Positions 1,940 through 21,147 of a DNA stretch of 64,000 nt are shown in pieces. The first letter of the stretch is position 1. Each line of letters starts with the position of its first letter. Source of the DNA: Naegleria gruberi (lineage: Eukaryota); the NCBI GenBank assembly GCA_000004985.1, contig GG738862.1; one strand, written 5' to 3'. The position numbers and the translations under genes were made by a program. The notes beneath the pieces were generated by a model. The model saw only the letters and a list, made by a program, of their open reading frames with translations, was not told where the DNA came from and searched no databases.

Positions 1940-4900
1940 ATGCCACCATTGATCAGTTCATCATCTCTAAATGGTGATGAATTGGAAGAACTTGATCTCA
2001 ATGAAGATTATGCTAGTGGTGAAGTGTTTAAGAATGGGAATGATGATGATTCGTCTCCAGAGCCATTGCATAAGGGAGCTTCTTGGATATCAATCTTGTT
2101 CTTTATGTTTGCTGGCAAGTTGATGAGTATTGGCTTTAGAAGGGCTGGTGAGAATTATTTGATGAAAATGATAAAGAACATGTTGAATCGTGTTGGAATC
2201 TTTGGTCGATTTGAGATTAGAAAGGAGGAGGGAATGAATCATGGGGATATTCCCAAGTTGGCCGAAAGTGAAAAGTCAAGCAATCATTGTGAATTATTCG
2301 AAAGAGAATATAGAGAATTGTATCGTGAGAGGGGCAATTATCGTGAAGATGGAGGATTTAGAAAGAATTATGGAGGTCTATTGTTGAGAGTAATTGAGAG
2401 AGTTTATAGAAGAAGAGGATTGTATACAGTTTCTTTGTGGAGAGTTGCAGAAATGATATGTTTGTACATGTCACCACTCATTCTCTATATTTTACTCGAG
2501 TCAATCAAAGTTGATGAGTATGTGAAAAGTGCTATACCAGCAGCCACTCAATATTTAATTCCAACATCTTCTTACGGAATATTGAGTAATGACACTGTCA
2601 TTGCATCCAATTTCACAATGAACAATGAAACAAATTGGTTTCAAGAAAACTTGCCACTCTCAAATATTTTCTTCCAGTTAACTTTGGTACTTTTTTGCAA
2701 CTTCTAAAATTTGGATTCCACTCATTGGAGCTCTTCAAGGTTCAATCCTGCAAAAGTTGAATAGAATCAAGAGTGTGGAAAGAAGAAAATTCAAAAGTGG
2801 TGAGTTGAACAATCTATTTGCCATAGACACCAGAAGTGTAGCCATGGATGGTATTGATATTCATGAAGCTTGGTTAATGCCATTGACCTTAATTGTTGGT
2901 ATTGTGTTGGTTTTCGTATTTTTTGGATATAGCTCACTTGTTGGTGTTCTTGCAATGATTATATGTGGACCAGTTCTTCCATTTTTGGGTAAATATCAAA
3001 CTAGTTTTGCAGGCAAAGCTGCACAATTCAGAGATGAAAGAATCAAACACATGAGTGAAATATTGAATGGTATTAGAATTGTTAAATTTTATGTTTTTGA
3101 AGATAAGATGAAAGAAAAGGTTAATCAAGCAAGAGAAAAGGAATATTCACTCCTCCGAAAGTATGTTACTGTAATGAGTGGATATTGCTTTACTTCATCC
3201 CTGATGGCCATTGTTGGAAGTGGAGCTACTTTTGTGACTTTCTACTATGCAGGTGGAGATTTGACTTTACCTAAAATGTTTACTGGACTAGTGTTGTTTG
3301 GAACCTTTAGATTACCATTGTTGCATTTACCTTGGGCCATTTCAAACTTGGTTTTCGCCTATGTGAGTGCCAAACGTATTGGTAGATTCTTGTTTAGTGA
3401 AGATACTGAGAAATTGCCACATGATCATGAAAATAAGGCAAACTTGTGGGAATTTGATGAAGAACAAACAGAATTTTCGTCCATTATGGATAATGACACT
3501 GCTATTGAATGTAAGGATGCTTCCATTGGATGGTCAGAAGAGGAAGCTCCAACCCTCACTGATTTAAATTTGAAAATTGAGAGAGGAAAGCTCTACTGTG
3601 TCATTGGTAATACTGGTAGTGGAAAATCAACCTTAATTTCCTCCATTTATGGTGAATCTGTTGTAAAGAGCGGAAAAGTTAAAGTTAATCCATTGTGTAA
3701 TATTTCACTCAGTGATGAAACCCCATGGTTGATCAATGCATCTGTAAGGGAAAATATTGTCTTTGATAAGAATTTAACTTTTGACAGGGAAAGATATAAT
3801 AGAATATTGGATGTTTGTCAATTAAGAGATGATCTCAGTCGATTCCCAAATTATGATAAGACTGAAATTGGTTTTTCTGGAATTAATCTTTCAGGAGGTC
3901 AAAAACATAGAATTAGTTTAGCCAGAGCTTGTTACAGTAATTCTGAAATTGTCTTGATGGATTCCACACTCAACTCAATTGATGCCAAATTGTGTAGAAA
4001 GATTTTCAATGAATGCATTTGTGGATTTTTGAAGGATAGAACTAGAATTCTCGTTACACATTCACTTCAATTATTGGAAATGGCTGATGAAGTCATTGTT
4101 TTTGAGAATGGAAAGTTGATTGCTAAAGGGTCTTTGAAGGAAATTAAGAATTCCTATGACTTTTCCAAACTAATCTCTGAAGAAAAGGAAGAAAGTGAAA
4201 CAGAAGAGAATGAAGTAACAGAAAAGGATATGAAACAAGACGAAAAGAAAGGTCAACTCGTCGCTGCAGAAGATAAGAGCTATGGTGAAGTTAGTTGGTC
4301 TGTCTTTATGACCTATATCCGTCGGTGTGGAATTTTCTTAACTGTCATCAGTCTCCTTTTGAATGTAATGTCAATGGGTGCAAAAACAGCAAGTCAAGTC
4401 TGGATATCTGTTATGAATAGTGACATGCTTAGCTTACCTCTGGTTGCCTATGTTTGGGTTTTCTTCTCTTTTGGATTAATGGACTGTTTCATCATTTTCT
4501 TTAAGGAACTAAGCTTAGGATTTGCCACATTGAAAGGTTCTAACAATCTTCATAGAAGTATGCTGAATAACATTCTGAGAGCACCAATTCAATTCTTTGA
4601 TCAGAATCCAGTCGGAAGAATATTGAATAGATTCACTCAAGATTTGGAAACTTTGGATAATATGGTCATGTTTGCTTCGGATTTTATTAGCAATGTATTG
4701 AATATCATCTTTACCTTAACTCTAATTTCTGTAATTAATCCAATGTTTTTAATTGTGGTTGTTCCAATTGGTTTTGCATTTTACATAATTCAAGAATATT
4801 ATAGGACTACATCAAGAGAACTTAGAAGATTGGAATCGATTTCAAAGAGTCCTGTAATGTCACATTTCAATTCTTGTCTGGAAGGCGTCAATACTGTCAA

Positions 4901-16199: not shown

Positions 16200-17336
16200 A
16201 TGTCTCAACAACAAAACAACACAACCACTAACTCGAACAATAGCCCTTACGCAGCATTTGCATCAAATACTCCAAGAAATAACAACCCTAACAATTTCCG
16301 AAAGAAACACAAGTTTTTCCTAAAGGTTTCTAACGAAAACAATTCATCATCTACCTCTTCATCAAATCAAGCCTCATCTTCTTCTGATGATCAAAATAAT
16401 TCTTTGGAAAATAATCAACAACAACTAATTGATGGATTTAAATGTTGTACTTATAATATTCATGTTTTTAAATCAGGAAATGGACAAACAACTTTAGATA
16501 AGCTAATTGATTATCTAACTGTTGGACAGATTGGATCTAAACCTTTTGATATCATTGGATTGAATGAAGCTTTCGAGTCGAAATATAGAAGGGGACAAAT
16601 TTTGACACCTTTAAATGAAATTCAAAAGTCACTTACTAAATATTATGGAACAGAATACAAGTGTTATTATGCACCAACTTGTAAAACGATGGGAAATTGT
16701 TTCATAACTGCATTGCCTGTTAAGAAAACTCAAACTTGGAGACTTGCGAAAGGACCTGGTGGAGTGAGAAATGTTTTAGGATTGCAACTTGATTTGGAGA
16801 AATGCAAGTCACCAGTTGAATATTTCTTTCTCACACATTTGGATTTTATTAATGAGGAATGGAGAGTGAAACAATTTTCACAGATTTTGGAATTTATGGA
16901 AAAATTCATGAGACAATCGTTCAATACTAAGGATAATAATTTTGTAATGATGGGAGATTTCAATGCCATGTATAAGAATGATTATACTCAAGAATTTTGG
17001 GATCAAATTCAAATGGACAGAATGCAAGAGCAATGGGAACCAGCTGTCAGTACTCTTATGGACATTTTGCTTGGTGACATTAAGGATGAGCGATTACCCA
17101 TTCAGAAAAATCTCAAATGCGAAAAATTATATGATACATGGCGAATGTGCAATAAGGAATTACAATTCAATGGTAGAAACCTTTCCTCCTCAAGACTGAA
17201 AACCAGAATTGACTATATTCTTTGCTCTAAGAGTTTATCCAAGAATGTTCTCCACAGCTGCATTGATACCAAATCAAAAACTACTTCAATTTCAGATCAC
17301 AATCCAGTCATTACACACTTTTCCTTTTTAGCATAG
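16200..17336 (+). CDS. endonuclease/exonuclease/phosphatase (EEP) family protein with N/S/Q-rich N-terminus, 378 aa
   Basis: EEP catalytic motifs are present: IIGLNEA..., MGDFNAMY, RIDYILCS, SDHNPVITHFSF. The first ~75 residues are low-complexity N/S/Q. Confidence 0.7.
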   Translation: MSQQQNNTTTNSNNSPYAAFASNTPRNNNPNNFRKKHKFFLKVSNENNSSSTSSSNQASSSSDDQNNSLENNQQQLIDGFKCCTYNIHVFKSGNGQTTLDKLIDYLTVGQIGSKPFDIIGLNEAFESKYRRGQILTPLNEIQKSLTKYYGTEYKCYYAPTCKTMGNCFITALPVKKTQTWRLAKGPGGVRNVLGLQLDLEKCKSPVEYFFLTHLDFINEEWRVKQFSQILEFMEKFMRQSFNTKDNNFVMMGDFNAMYKNDYTQEFWDQIQMDRMQEQWEPAVSTLMDILLGDIKDERLPIQKNLKCEKLYDTWRMCNKELQFNGRNLSSSRLKTRIDYILCSKSLSKNVLHSCIDTKSKTTSISDHNPVITHFSFLA

Positions 17337-18064: not shown

Positions 18065-19195
18065 ATGTTTTCGGGTTCAAAGTTGCGATTCCTGTGTCGT
18101 CGTCTGCATCAACATCAACATCATCAGATGATGGAGAGTAATTTTCATCATCAACATCAACAAACAATGCTTCTTCTTCGGAAATCCATGGTGATGAATA
18201 AACCACTCTATAATTATAGTACAAGCACAATAACAGCCAATGAAGCTACAACAACCGAGTCGACTCCAACAACCACTACTAATACACCAACAACAGCAAC
18301 AACAACTTCAACAACAACAAATTCTAATACAATGAAGTACACATCAACAGAAATTAGACTCATCAAGAAACAAAAAGAAAGAGTTTTGAAAAAGGAAAAG
18401 ATTGATGAAGTAGTTGGGAAACTTTTCAATATTAACCAGAAGAAGGAAATGGGACAATTTTCAGAAAATGTTGTGGATGTAGTATCGGAGACACCTGCTG
18501 TTGAAAAGAAGAAGAGAAAATCGAAAAAGGCTGAAGCTAAAGAAGCAGCATCAAAAGCAATTGTTGAAGAACCAATCAAGAAGGAAGCCTTTACAAATCC
18601 AGAAATCGATTCTCTTGTCGATAATATTCTCACCATGACCATTGCAGGACAAGCTAGTTTGGCTGCCTCTGCTGAAGAAGAAGATGAATTAATTTCTCTG
18701 TTAAAGACAAAGAGAAGACAAAGATTCAACACTTTAAATAGTAATAATGGTGTTAATGTTGGTCCGACAACTTACAAGTCATCAATCGACAAGTTTTCAC
18801 AACAAGAAGTTGATTTTAAACAATATACACAAACCAAGGAATCTGAATTGTCTTCACCTCTTGAAATGTCAGAAGAGGGTGATGAAGATATTAAAACTCC
18901 ACAAATTGATCCAGAGGATGAGGATATTCTTTCTTATTTACGTGAATTGAAGGATAGAACAGTCAAACAAAAGGAAGAAGAAAAGAAATCAGCATTGGAA
19001 AATGACAATGAATTGGATGAGGAAGATAAGATTGTTGAGAAAGCTTGGCAAGATATTGCCTCAAAGCCAGAAAGTGCTGCCAAGACTGTAGAAGCTGAAC
19101 TTGATGAACCAGTTTCAAGATCTTCTAAATCATCTTCCAATAATTCAAAGAAGGACGATGTCATTATGCAATTTTTACAAGATCTCCTCAAATAA
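18065..19195 (+). CDS. hypothetical charged/low-complexity protein (His/Gln, Thr-rich, then K/E-rich), 376 aa
   Basis: ATG-initiated ORF with coding-like periodicity. It has poly-Thr/Asn tracts and a K/E-rich middle. No recognisable domain. Confidence 0.5.
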   Translation: MFSGSKLRFLCRRLHQHQHHQMMESNFHHQHQQTMLLLRKSMVMNKPLYNYSTSTITANEATTTESTPTTTTNTPTTATTTSTTTNSNTMKYTSTEIRLIKKQKERVLKKEKIDEVVGKLFNINQKKEMGQFSENVVDVVSETPAVEKKKRKSKKAEAKEAASKAIVEEPIKKEAFTNPEIDSLVDNILTMTIAGQASLAASAEEEDELISLLKTKRRQRFNTLNSNNGVNVGPTTYKSSIDKFSQQEVDFKQYTQTKESELSSPLEMSEEGDEDIKTPQIDPEDEDILSYLRELKDRTVKQKEEEKKSALENDNELDEEDKIVEKAWQDIASKPESAAKTVEAELDEPVSRSSKSSSNNSKKDDVIMQFLQDLLK

Positions 19196-19698: not shown

Positions 19699-20999
19699 AT
19701 GATCAACAGTAGTTGTTGGTTGGTAGCTGTTTTGTTGATGTTGTGCCTCGTCTCAACTGCAACATGTGCTATTGCCTTGGCTGGTAATAAGAGAGCTGCT
19801 CCATCAACTGCTATGTGTACTCGTTACACTTCTGCATCATTGGTTGGAGATGTTGATTTGAGTAAGGTCACTCCAAAGCCTGTTAACTGTCCTTTGGGAT
19901 GTAATTTGTATACTGTTTCTGGCTCTGCATTGGGTTATAATGGTCCACTTGGGGCTTTGGGGTATGTTGTGTAGCTTTTATGATTTGTTTTACTATTTAT
20001 CAAACATTTTCATTATCATGATCAATCAGTCCTTTGGGTCCTTTGGGTCCTGTTTCCACTGGTACCCCTTACAATGTTCCTGATAATTTTGTTTGGTATG
20101 GAAATAACTTTAATACTTACCTTAAGGAAATGAATGCATGTGATAAGTTATTGAGCCATCCACAAAATCCACTCTCTTCTGCTGGCCCAATGGGTGATGC
20201 TTTCTTTGATGTCATGCCAAAGATTAACGATTTCACTAAACACATGATGGGTAAGTTGTTAAATAGTATTTGAATGCTAATAGGAATATTTCAATACGAA
20301 ATGTTGATGAAACCATTATTATATATTTACAAATTTTACACATTAAAAGGTATGGGAGTTTGGACTGTTTTGGGACCATTGGGACCTTTGGGCCCACTTG
20401 GTGCTTTGGGACCATTGGGTCCAGTTGGTTGCCACATGTTGGACGTTGATAAGGATGGTCAATTCGTCAGTAAGAAGGGTGAAGTTTTGAGAACTACCTC
20501 AGTTGTTTATAACTCGTCCCTCACTGTTAACTGGCCTCTTTTCGAAAGATATAAGAGTAGAGAATTCGTTGACAAATTGTCCAAGAAGGGTTTGCTCGAC
20601 ACTTCTTTCATGGTTTCTGCTAGTGTTGATATTACTGGTCATGCCTATGACATGGTTGTTACTGAACCTCAATACGTCACTGTCACTGTTATCCCAACTC
20701 TCTGGGCTAAGAACTTCTTCTTGGAAGCTTTCATTAACGGTAAATCTGTTATGAAGTCTGAAAAGCTCTTATTCACTCCTTGGTTCCAAGTCCACATTTC
20801 TGGAGCTGATTTGCAAAATGCTGGTCCAGGTGGAGCTAAATTGAAGGTTGTCATTAAGACTGATCCTCTCGATTGTGGAATGATGTCTGTCTTTGGATGT
20901 ACTATGGATTACACAATGCATGTTGTTGGTTCAACTTCATTCATGATGAGAAAGCCACACCTCAGTTACACTGGTCCACATATTAAGCAATGTGAATAA
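19699..20999 (+). CDS. secreted protein with two short collagen-like (GPL/GAL/GPV) Gly-X-Y runs; 3 exons
   Basis: Signal peptide MINSSCWLVAVLLMLCLVSTATCAIALA. Exons are 19699–19961, 20030–20250 and 20350–20999. Introns are 19962–20029 (GTATGT..CAG) and 20251–20349 (GTAAGT..AAG). Both sit at or next to the GPLG-coding repeats and restore frame (anchored to ORF ends). The spliced protein reads ...YNGPLGALGGPLGPLGPV... and ...KHMMGMGVWTVLGPLGPLGPLGALGPLGPVG.... It has a Cys-containing C-terminal domain of unknown function. Confidence 0.65.
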
Positions 21000-21147
21000 A
21001 TAATTCATGTGTTGTTTAAATGATTGCTCTTGATATTTTATGCCCACCTCTATTTAGGAACTGAGAATACTGTAGTGAGAAGAAGGTTAAATGGACTTTT
21101 GCAAACAAGAAACAAGTTGACAAAAGATTTTTATCCAAATCAAACCA

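What the first reader, a model, noticed from the sequence alone, without database searches (positions are those of the whole stretch)
19699..20999. Secreted protein whose two introns sit exactly at short collagen-like GPLG repeats
The two Gly-X-Y runs (GPLGALGGPLGPLGPV and GPLGPLGPLGALGPLGPVG) are each created across, or immediately after, a splice junction (19961/20030 and 20250/20350). The exon ends and starts repeat the same GGTCCTTTGGG-like DNA. This pattern suggests exon-shuffled mini-collagen modules or repeat-associated intron gain. The C-terminal ~220 aa are Cys-containing and novel.
Basis: seen in the sequence. Interest (0 to 1): 0.5.

Follow-up and report, generated by a model that had tools for sequence, protein, structure and literature searches.

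The report
Conserved Gly-Pro-Leu triplet protein gene
This is an already annotated Naegleria gruberi gene for a secreted protein of an uncharacterised family found in bacteria and protists; its short collagen-like Gly-Pro-Leu runs are ancient, near-invariant parts of the protein, and the introns were inserted later into glycine codons, so these are not shuffled collagen modules.

Summary
The gene is real. Its three exons (19699-19961, 20030-20250, 20350-20999) encode exactly XP_002678281.1 (NAEGRDRAFT_66348, Naegleria gruberi). Intron 1 splits a Gly codon in the middle of the first Gly-Pro-Leu run. Intron 2 lies 8 codons upstream of the second run, not in it.

Exon shuffling is refuted:
- The triplet runs are the most conserved part of a roughly 340-380 aa family that includes intron-less bacterial genes.
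- Exon 2 has mismatched phases (2 and 1).
- The whole protein travels as one unit.

The C-terminal half is not novel. It is conserved and models as a beta-sandwich like the PPC / collagenase collagen-binding domain.

"Repeat-associated intron gain" is partly supported. In 9 eukaryotic homologues all 15 introns follow an exonic G, and 7 of 8 distinct positions fall inside Gly codons. Seven genes carry an intron in the same invariant Gly codon (phase 2 in Heterolobosea and a rotifer, phase 1 in Tetrahymena). One Willaertia gene has three more introns in the third run, giving 9- and 18-nt micro-exons. The glycine-codon preference explains most of this clustering.

Function is unknown. AlphaFold places the triplet segments confidently only when the beta-sandwich is present, which suggests a compact fold rather than a collagen stalk.

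The parts
19699..19961 (+). Exon 1 (263 nt): start codon, signal-like leader (residues 1-28, 19699-19782), N-terminal region and the first half of triplet segment 1
   Evidence: The product is identical to XP_002678281.1. Hydrophobicity of residues 1-28.
19962..20029 (+). Intron 1, 68 nt, GTATGT..CAG, phase 2, inside the codon of invariant Gly88 (GG|T)
   Evidence: The same codon and phase are interrupted in N. lovaniensis, W. magna P0003 and Brachionus P0004. The same codon is interrupted at phase 1 in three Tetrahymena genes. Retention gives an in-frame stop.
19933..20054 (+). Triplet segment 1 (residues 79-96, GYNGPLGALGPLGPLGPV), interrupted by intron 1
   Evidence: In 67 homologues G82, G88, L90, G94 and P95 are invariant, and Gly recurs every third residue.
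20030..20250 (+). Exon 2 (221 nt; entered in phase 2, left in phase 1): end of segment 1, a variable helical linker, triplet segment 2 and the INDF..KHMM block
20163..20195 (+). Triplet segment 2 (residues 133-143, QNPLSSAGPMG). It is degenerate here; the family consensus is GPLGPxGPL(S/G). It contains no intron.
   Evidence: G140 is invariant; P135, L136 and P141 are nearly invariant.
20251..20349 (+). Intron 2, 99 nt, GTAAGT..AAG, phase 1, in the Gly162 codon, 8 codons upstream of segment 3
   Evidence: The same position and phase occur in N. lovaniensis P0007. Paratrimastix has a phase-0 intron 1 nt upstream. W. magna has no intron here. Retention gives an in-frame stop.
20350..20999 (+). 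Exon 3 (650 nt, including the TAA stop at 20997-20999)
   Evidence: The Logan contig L005 is 98.2% identical to window 20074-21103.
20373..20438 (+). Triplet segment 3 (residues 170-191, GPLGPLGPLGALGPLGPVGCHM): 7 consecutive Gly-X-Y triplets, with Met191 where the family has an eighth Gly; 9-nt DNA periodicity
   Evidence: G170, G176, L181, G182, G185 and G188 are invariant. The Leu residues at the third triplet position are at least 92% conserved.
20478..20996 (+). C-terminal beta-sandwich (residues about 205-377), similar to the PPC / collagenase collagen-binding domain

Best explanation
The locus is the annotated three-exon gene NAEGRDRAFT_66348 of Naegleria gruberi. It encodes a 377-aa protein with a signal-like leader, which I take to be extracellular.

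The protein belongs to a rare, widely scattered and uncharacterised family of about 340-380 aa. Members occur in Gammaproteobacteria and Myxococcales and, among eukaryotes, in Heterolobosea, Tetrahymena, Paratrimastix, Arcella and a rotifer. The family behaves as one evolutionary unit with this layout: leader, short N-terminal region, three short Gly-Pro-(Leu/Ile/Val) triplet segments separated by small helical linkers, then a PPC / collagen-binding-domain-like beta-sandwich.

Shown:
- The triplet segments are the most conserved part of the family.
- They predate the introns, because they are present at identical length in intron-less bacterial genes.
- The introns are pure insertions into glycine codons.
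- Intron 1 is old, shared across Naegleria, Willaertia and a rotifer gene.
- Other lineages carry further introns at equivalent Leu-Gly codon pairs.

Inferred:
- Introns accumulate in the triplet-coding DNA because Gly codons supply the exonic G next to the 5' splice site. The runs are simply where conserved Gly codons are densest. This is proto-splice-site preference or retention, not exon shuffling.
- In the protein, the triplet segments are extended, polyproline-II-like strands. Their invariant Gly and hydrophobic third positions pack against each other and against the beta-sandwich, forming one compact domain rather than a free trimeric collagen stalk.
- By analogy with PPC-type domains, the protein is probably a secreted binding or structural module. 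Its ligand is unknown.
For: - Gene model. It is identical to XP_002678281.1. The flanking ORFs are exact N. gruberi proteins.
- Family: 455 hits at E<=1e-3, with N. fowleri at 55% identity, plus Willaertia, Tetrahymena, Paratrimastix, Brachionus, Myxococcus and Gammaproteobacteria. Arcella is also a member. The profile search finds 465 representative clusters among 1.84 billion proteins, almost all full-length matches.
- Triplet segments: conserved in bacterial members at the same length. Per column, Gly is 60-67 of 67 sequences at the triplet positions of segments 1 and 3, and the third-position Leu is 61-67 of 67 at most sites.
- Intron map of 9 genes and 15 introns: all 15 have G at exon position -1, and 7 of 8 distinct positions lie inside Gly codons. 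The Gly88-equivalent codon is interrupted in 7 of the 9 genes. W. magna P0003 has three further phase-2 introns in segment 3, and splicing restores exactly the bacterial consensus sequence (statistics).
- Literature: a minimal G/G consensus for introns inside conserved glycine codons has been described (PMC3096672).
- Structure: the full-length AF2 model has pLDDT 89.8 and pTM 0.86, with the triplet segments neither helix nor strand and block-mean pLDDT about 78-97. The same segments modelled without the C-domain fall to pLDDT about 40-60.
- C-domain fold. Weak Collagen (35 of 67) and PPC (4 of 67) Pfam hits among members.
Against: - No transcript data could be examined, so the junctions rest on homology and on the existing annotation.
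- I could not read the model coordinates. The polyproline-II conformation and the packing of the three segments are inferred from pLDDT, the absence of DSSP helix or strand, and the conservation pattern.
- The intron statistics are post hoc and use few genes. Once introns are restricted to Gly codons, the excess in the triplet runs is only P = 0.06.
- Whether the phase-1 (Tetrahymena) and phase-2 (Heterolobosea) introns in the same codon reflect one ancestral intron or parallel gains is unresolved.
- Gene neighbourhoods in three bacteria are not conserved and give no functional clue.
Confidence: 0.72

Rival explanations
1. One reading: the GPLG runs are mini-collagen modules brought in by exon shuffling, with the introns marking the module borders.
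For: Introns lie in or near two of the runs. The runs are Gly-X-Y and give weak Collagen Pfam hits in 35 of 67 homologues.
Against: - The runs are present at the same positions and lengths in intron-less bacterial homologues.
- Intron 1 splits run 1 instead of flanking it.
- Exon 2 is 221 nt with phases 2 and 1.
- Segment 2 has no intron.
- The profile search returns almost only whole-protein matches.
Confidence: 0.03
2. Active repeat-driven intron creation: the repetitive triplet-coding DNA itself generates introns, by tandem duplication of AGGT-containing units or by intronisation of repeat units. This would go beyond a passive preference for Gly codons.
For: - W. magna P0003 carries three introns within 19 codons of segment 3. 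All are phase 2 with the identical flank TTAGG|GTAAGT, producing 9- and 18-nt micro-exons.
- The same Gly codon of segment 1 is hit in two different phases in distant lineages.
- Six of 8 distinct positions lie in 13.5% of the protein.
Against: - After splicing, every run has exactly the bacterial length, so no repeat unit was converted into intron.
- The introns show no similarity to each other or to the repeat (z between -1.3 and +1.4).
- Given the Gly-codon preference, the enrichment is only P = 0.06.
- Intron ends do not mirror exon ends as the duplication model predicts.
Confidence: 0.15
3. A genuine collagen-like trimer: three chains associate through the Gly-Pro-Leu runs into inter-chain triple helices, with the C-terminal beta-sandwich acting as a trimerisation or head domain, as in C1q-like or bacterial collagen-like proteins.
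For: Gly recurs strictly every third residue. There are weak PF01391 hits in homologues and weak collagen hits in the PDB sequence search (E 0.5-2.2). Some phage C1q-domain proteins appear among low-TM viral fold hits.
Against: - The runs are only 4-8 triplets long and are separated by globular stretches.
- The hydrophobic third positions are nearly invariant, unlike solvent-exposed collagen X/Y positions.
- The monomer model is compact and confident (pTM 0.86).
- The window protein has no Pfam Collagen hit even at E<=1.
- The C-domain resembles PPC / collagen-binding domains and GOLD domains rather than C1q/TNF.
Confidence: 0.08

Closest known systems
PPC domain (PF04151) / collagen-binding domains s3, s3a, s3b of clostridial collagenases ColG and ColH (PDB 1nqd, 3jqw, 5iku)
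   Different: There is no Pfam or PDB sequence match for this protein, and sequence identity in the structural alignments is 9-12%. GOLD domains and the Tk-SP C-domain score equally well. No protease is attached. Collagen or Ca2+ binding is untested.
Collagen triple-helix repeat proteins (PF01391), including bacterial collagen-like proteins
   Same: Gly-X-Y periodicity with Pro at X. Weak sub-threshold PF01391 hits in 35 of 67 homologues.
   Different: The runs contain only 4-8 triplets, and there are three per chain, embedded in a globular protein. The third positions are near-invariant Leu/Ile/Val. The family is one compact unit and probably monomeric. This protein gives no PF01391 hit.
Glycine-rich polyproline-II helical bundle domains (snow flea antifreeze protein, Obg N-domain and others; Segura Rodriguez & Laurents, bioRxiv 10.1101/2023.11.25.568672)
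   Same: Several short Gly-periodic segments in one chain are predicted to be neither helix nor strand yet well ordered.
Introns at proto-splice sites / in conserved glycine codons (Dibb & Newman 1989, from my own knowledge; G/G consensus in conserved Gly codons in alpha-amylase genes, PMC3096672)
   Same: All 15 mapped introns follow an exonic G, and 7 of 8 distinct positions interrupt Gly codons. The literature describes the same G/G minimal consensus inside conserved glycine codons.
   Different: Most introns here are phase 2 (GG|N) rather than phase 1 (G|GN). They cluster in a triplet repeat, producing micro-exons in Willaertia.

Membership tests
Collagen triple-helix repeat (PF01391) | Long uninterrupted Gly-X-Y run matched by the Pfam model above its threshold | tested here: not met
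   There is no Pfam hit at E<=1 for this protein. The runs contain 6, about 3 and 7 triplets. Among 67 homologues only weak hits occur, the best at E 8.9e-4.
Collagen triple-helix repeat (PF01391) | Gly at every third residue within the run | tested here: met
   Gly is 60-67 of 67 sequences at the triplet positions of segments 1 and 3.
Collagen triple-helix repeat (PF01391) | Three chains forming a triple helix | not testable with these tools
   Only monomer prediction was available, and it is compact with pTM 0.86. The oligomeric state is unknown.
PPC / collagenase collagen-binding domain (PF04151) | Sequence match to the family model | tested here: not met
   No hit for this protein. Four of 67 homologues give weak hits, the best at E 0.0026. 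The PDB profile search finds no collagen-binding domain.
PPC / collagenase collagen-binding domain (PF04151) | Beta-sandwich fold superposable on solved PPC / collagen-binding domains | tested here: met
PPC / collagenase collagen-binding domain (PF04151) | Binding of collagen or Ca2+ | not testable with these tools
   Requires experiment.
Exon-shuffled mobile module | Module exon flanked by introns of the same phase, with length a multiple of 3 | tested here: not met
   Exon 2 is 221 nt, entered in phase 2 and left in phase 1.
Exon-shuffled mobile module | Exon borders coincide with module borders, and the module recurs in unrelated proteins | tested here: not met
   Intron 1 splits run 1. The runs are present in intron-less bacterial genes. 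The profile search yields almost only full-length family matches.
Glycine-rich PPII helical bundle domains | Several PPII helices packed side by side through Gly | tested here: inconclusive
Proto-splice-site / glycine-codon introns | Exonic G immediately 5' of the intron, within a conserved Gly codon | tested here: met
   All 15 introns have G at position -1, and 7 of 8 distinct positions are inside Gly codons.
Proto-splice-site / glycine-codon introns | Genome-wide N. gruberi exon-side splice consensus matching these flanks | tested here: inconclusive
   A GTA[AT]GT hexamer scan of the window (63 sites) showed no signal above background. A genome-wide intron set is needed.

The most novel reading that the evidence does not exclude
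The family may define a new compact extracellular fold. In it, three short collagen-like Gly-Pro-Leu strands from one chain would form an intramolecular polyproline-II bundle, possibly a parallel, triple-helix-like one. This bundle would be docked on, and stabilised by, a beta-sandwich of the collagen-binding-domain type. That would make it a self-contained 'collagen segment plus collagen-binding domain' unit, conserved from bacteria to amoebae. Separately, the invariant Gly codon at its centre would be a recurrent intron insertion hot spot across eukaryotic supergroups.
Probability: 0.3. Interest if true: 0.65.

Novelty: new variant of a known kind. Interest (0 to 1): 0.35.

Why it matters
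For the original claim, it matters little. There is no exon shuffling, and the intron placement follows the known tendency of introns to sit next to an exonic G in conserved glycine codons.

Two things deserve modest attention:
- This is an unnamed, rare protein family, about 465 clusters among 1.84 billion proteins. Its most conserved elements are three collagen-like triplet strands that appear to be an integral part of a globular fold with a collagen-binding-domain-like sandwich. If confirmed, it would add a new type to the small set of polyproline-II-based folds.
- The family is a compact natural test case for parallel intron gain versus intron sliding. One invariant Gly codon is interrupted in phase 2 in Heterolobosea and a rotifer and in phase 1 in ciliates, and Willaertia has 9-nt micro-exons.

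Tried and rejected
- Pfam, NCBIfam and PDB sequence searches with the protein and with the family profile gave no family and no solved relative.
- Modelling the N-terminal part alone (residues 38-200), to get a cleaner fold search for the triplet region, gave pLDDT 62. That is too poor to search.
- The afdb50 fold library was not available. The viral library gave only generic beta-sandwich hits with low TM.
- Testing whether the Willaertia introns are copies of each other (duplication of intron-plus-repeat units) found no similarity above shuffled controls.
- Deriving the N. gruberi exon-side 5' splice consensus from GTA[AT]GT hexamers in the window was uninformative: 63 sites with no signal above background composition.
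- Bacterial gene neighbourhoods in three genomes showed no conserved partners. The gene appears to stand alone.
- No paralogue is present in the window.
- Literature searches for the motif, the locus tag and accessions, Naegleria collagen-like proteins, and single-chain triple helices found nothing relevant.
- I first thought the gene was unannotated, because the 90% cluster representative is a 215-aa fragment. An exact look-up showed it is XP_002678281.1.

Full report
**What is there**

The window is AT-rich eukaryotic DNA, with GC 0.30-0.38. Two neighbouring ORFs (16200-17336 and 18065-19195) are exact matches to the Naegleria gruberi proteins XP_002678279 and XP_002678280.

An ATG at 19699, preceded by an A-run, opens a three-exon CDS:
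- Exon 1: 19699-19961.
- Exon 2: 20030-20250.
- Exon 3: 20350-20999, ending in a TAA stop.
- Intron 1: 68 nt, GTATGT..CAG.
- Intron 2: 99 nt, GTAAGT..AAG.

The 377-aa product is letter-for-letter the annotated protein XP_002678281.1 / EFC45537.1 / UniProt D2VBV3, 'predicted protein NAEGRDRAFT_66348'. Retaining either intron runs into an in-frame stop within a few codons. No paralogue lies elsewhere in the window.

**Checking the observation**

- Run 1 is GPLGALGPLGPLGPV (residues 82-96).
- Intron 1 is phase 2 and splits the codon of Gly88 (GG|T) in the middle of that run.
- Run 2 is GPLGPLGPLGALGPLGPVG (residues 170-188).
- Intron 2 is phase 1 in the Gly162 codon and lies 8 codons upstream of run 2. 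'Exactly at' therefore holds for intron 1 only.
- A third, degenerate triplet segment (residues about 133-143) has no intron.
- The coding DNA of the runs has 9-nt periodicity.
- The N-terminus is strongly hydrophobic over residues 4-25, as a signal peptide would be.

**The protein is not novel in sequence**

A homology search returned 455 proteins at E<=1e-3. Hits include N. fowleri (55% identity), Willaertia magna (two genes), N. lovaniensis, Brachionus plicatilis, Tetrahymena species and Paratrimastix. Many bacterial or metagenomic proteins of 340-360 aa also appear, from Gammaproteobacteria including Agarilytica and from Myxococcus/Myxococcales. Arcella intermedia is a further eukaryotic member.

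None of these proteins carries a significant Pfam domain. The query matches no Pfam or NCBIfam model and no solved structure by sequence or by profile.

A filter-free profile search of 1.84 billion representative proteins found only 465 clusters at E<=1e-3, of which 228 were at E<=1e-30. Nearly all aligned over the whole profile, and one protein holds two tandem copies. The family is therefore rare, phylogenetically scattered, and inherited as a single unit.

**The triplet runs are ancient**

In a 67-sequence alignment the invariant columns are concentrated in the three triplet segments:
- Segment 1: G82, G88, L90, G94, P95.
- Segment 2: G140.
- Segment 3 and its lead-in: G164, G170, G176, L181, G182, G185, G188.

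Column counts show Gly at every third position in 60-67 of 67 sequences. They also show near-invariant Pro at the first position after Gly and Leu/Ile/Val at the second. Bacterial genes, which have no introns, carry the same runs at the same length.

This alone excludes an origin of the runs by exon shuffling in eukaryotes. In addition, exon 2 is 221 nt with unequal flanking phases (2 and 1), so it could not be inserted or removed in frame. And run 1 is split rather than bounded by its intron.

**Intron positions in homologues**

I recovered genomic loci for eight other eukaryotic genes and found the unique GT..AG models that reproduce each annotated protein. The results, using window residue numbering for equivalent positions:

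| Gene | Introns |
|---|---|
| N. lovaniensis P0007 | Gly79 (phase 1); Gly88 (phase 2, same as window intron 1); Gly162 (phase 1, same as window intron 2) |
| W. magna P0003 | Four introns, all phase 2 after 'TTAGG': one at Gly88 and three within segment 3, leaving micro-exons of 9 and 18 nt. The spliced product reproduces the bacterial consensus LGPIGPLGALGPLGPLGPVGAHG exactly. |
| W. magna P0006 | One intron, at the last of those segment-3 positions |
| Brachionus P0004 | One intron, at Gly88, phase 2 |
| Tetrahymena (three genes, two paralogue lineages) | One intron each, in the Gly88 codon, phase 1 |
| Paratrimastix P0037 | One phase-0 intron, 1 nt upstream of the Gly162 position |

Taken together, all 15 introns follow an exonic G. 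Seven of the 8 distinct positions are inside Gly codons, and 7 of the 9 genes are interrupted in the Gly88-equivalent codon.

Under uniform placement, 7 of 8 positions inside Gly codons has P about 3e-8. Six of 8 in the triplet segments (13.5% of the protein) has P about 1e-4. If introns are first restricted to Gly codons, the latter is only P = 0.06. The clustering in the runs is thus largely a consequence of a glycine-codon (exonic G) preference, combined with the density of conserved Gly codons there. A minimal G/G consensus for introns inside conserved glycine codons has been described before (PMC3096672).

I found no sign that the repeat DNA itself created the introns:
- The spliced runs keep the bacterial length.
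- The introns resemble neither the repeat nor one another (z between -1.3 and +1.4 against shuffles).

A neighbour-joining tree groups the Heterolobosea with Brachionus. It puts Tetrahymena in a separate clade and nests Paratrimastix among bacterial sequences. The phase-2 intron at Gly88 is therefore ancestral to the heterolobosean/rotifer clade. Whether the ciliate phase-1 intron is the same intron slid by one base, or a parallel gain, remains open.

**Structure and likely role**

AlphaFold2 with the family alignment gives a confident full-length model, with mean pLDDT 89.8 and pTM 0.86. The triplet segments are assigned neither helix nor strand, and their 10-residue blocks have mean pLDDT about 78-97. 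A low-confidence loop lies at residues 100-111. Short helices sit in the linkers, and residues about 205-377 form an all-beta domain.

Foldseek against the PDB gave ColH s3 and ColG s3b at E 2.6e-5 to 5e-4, with target-normalised TM 0.62-0.72. Both methods therefore identify the C-terminal domain as a PPC / collagen-binding-domain-like beta-sandwich. Four of 67 homologues give weak PF04151 hits and 35 give weak Collagen hits.

No solved structure matched the N-terminal half. Modelled without the C-domain, residues 38-200 drop to pLDDT 62, and the triplet segments drop to 40-60.

Four observations point the same way:
- The hydrophobic third positions are near-invariant.
- The runs are short and there are three per chain.
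- The linkers between them are long.
- The family is inherited as a single unit.

I therefore infer that the triplet segments are extended, polyproline-II-like strands forming an integral part of one compact extracellular fold, packed against each other and the sandwich. I do not think they form a free collagen stalk.

I could not read the model coordinates. The conformation and the parallel or antiparallel arrangement of the segments remain untested. The afdb50 library was unavailable, and the viral library gave only generic sandwich hits. Bacterial neighbourhoods are not conserved, and the searched literature mentions neither the protein nor the motif. The biochemical function remains unknown. 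A secreted binding or structural module is the best guess, by analogy with PPC-type domains.

**Verdict**

- The exon-shuffling reading is wrong.
- The 'novel C-terminus' is wrong.
- 'Repeat-associated intron gain' survives only in the weaker form that introns in this family preferentially occupy conserved Gly codons, which are densest in the runs.

What remains of interest is an unnamed, conserved bacterial and protist family with a possibly new polyproline-II-containing fold, and an intron hot spot in one invariant Gly codon.

Noticed in passing
L002 3531-3690 (Willaertia magna JBEGDK010000065.1, gene for P0003): Three introns of 38, 41 and 54 nt lie within 19 codons of the third triplet run. 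Each has the flank TTAGG|GTAAGT. They leave micro-exons of 9 nt (3569-3577, TGCATTAGG) and 18 nt (3619-3636). Splicing restores the family consensus exactly, so the micro-exons look real, but no transcript evidence was available.
   Followed up: partly
L004 5001-6129 (Brachionus plicatilis REGN01000221.1, P0004): A monogonont rotifer carries a homologue with 47% identity to the window protein. It has the same phase-2 intron in the Gly88-equivalent codon. It sits on a 31.7-kb contig next to genes with weak BEN and faint Ig Pfam hits (the 11-kb locus has GC 0.25). In the NJ tree it groups inside the heterolobosean clade next to N. gruberi and N. fowleri. Possible explanations are eukaryote-to-eukaryote gene transfer with intron retention, or an assembly contaminant.
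   Followed up: partly
L006 1501-2614 (Paratrimastix pyriformis, P0037): This eukaryotic member nests among bacterial sequences in the NJ tree, which suggests a separate, more recent acquisition. Yet it has one intron (phase 0) only 1 nt from the position of the Naegleria intron 2.
   Followed up: partly
L007 1724-1782; L012 3221-3471 and 6046-6103 (Tetrahymena thermophila and T. utriculariae): All three Tetrahymena genes examined, including a tandem pair about 1.5 kb apart in T. utriculariae, have a single intron. It is phase 1 and lies in the same Gly codon that Heterolobosea interrupt in phase 2.
   Followed up: yes
L005 (Logan assembly of run ERR1078381), equivalent to window 20074-21103: A 1035-bp contig from an unrelated public sequencing run is 98.2% identical to this locus, including intron 2. 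A close relative or another strain of N. gruberi is therefore present in that sample.
   Followed up: no
Proteins P0123 (705 aa) and P0106 (578 aa), metagenomic homologues: P0123 contains two tandem copies of the whole unit. In P0106 the unit is followed by precomputed PF22352 and PF01483 (proprotein convertase P-domain) hits. These are the only domain fusions noticed and might hint at a protease-associated context.
   Followed up: no
window 1775-50551: All 20 ORFs of at least 250 aa between 1.8 kb and 50.6 kb lie on the + strand. The first long minus-strand ORFs appear only after 50.6 kb. This is a long co-oriented gene run.
   Followed up: no
Alignment A1, bacterial members (for example P0024, P0036, P0067, P0088, P0097): Several bacterial homologues have a Cys directly after the hydrophobic leader (LSAC, LAGC, FGC motifs). 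These look like lipoprotein signal peptides, so part of the family may be membrane-anchored lipoproteins.
   Followed up: no
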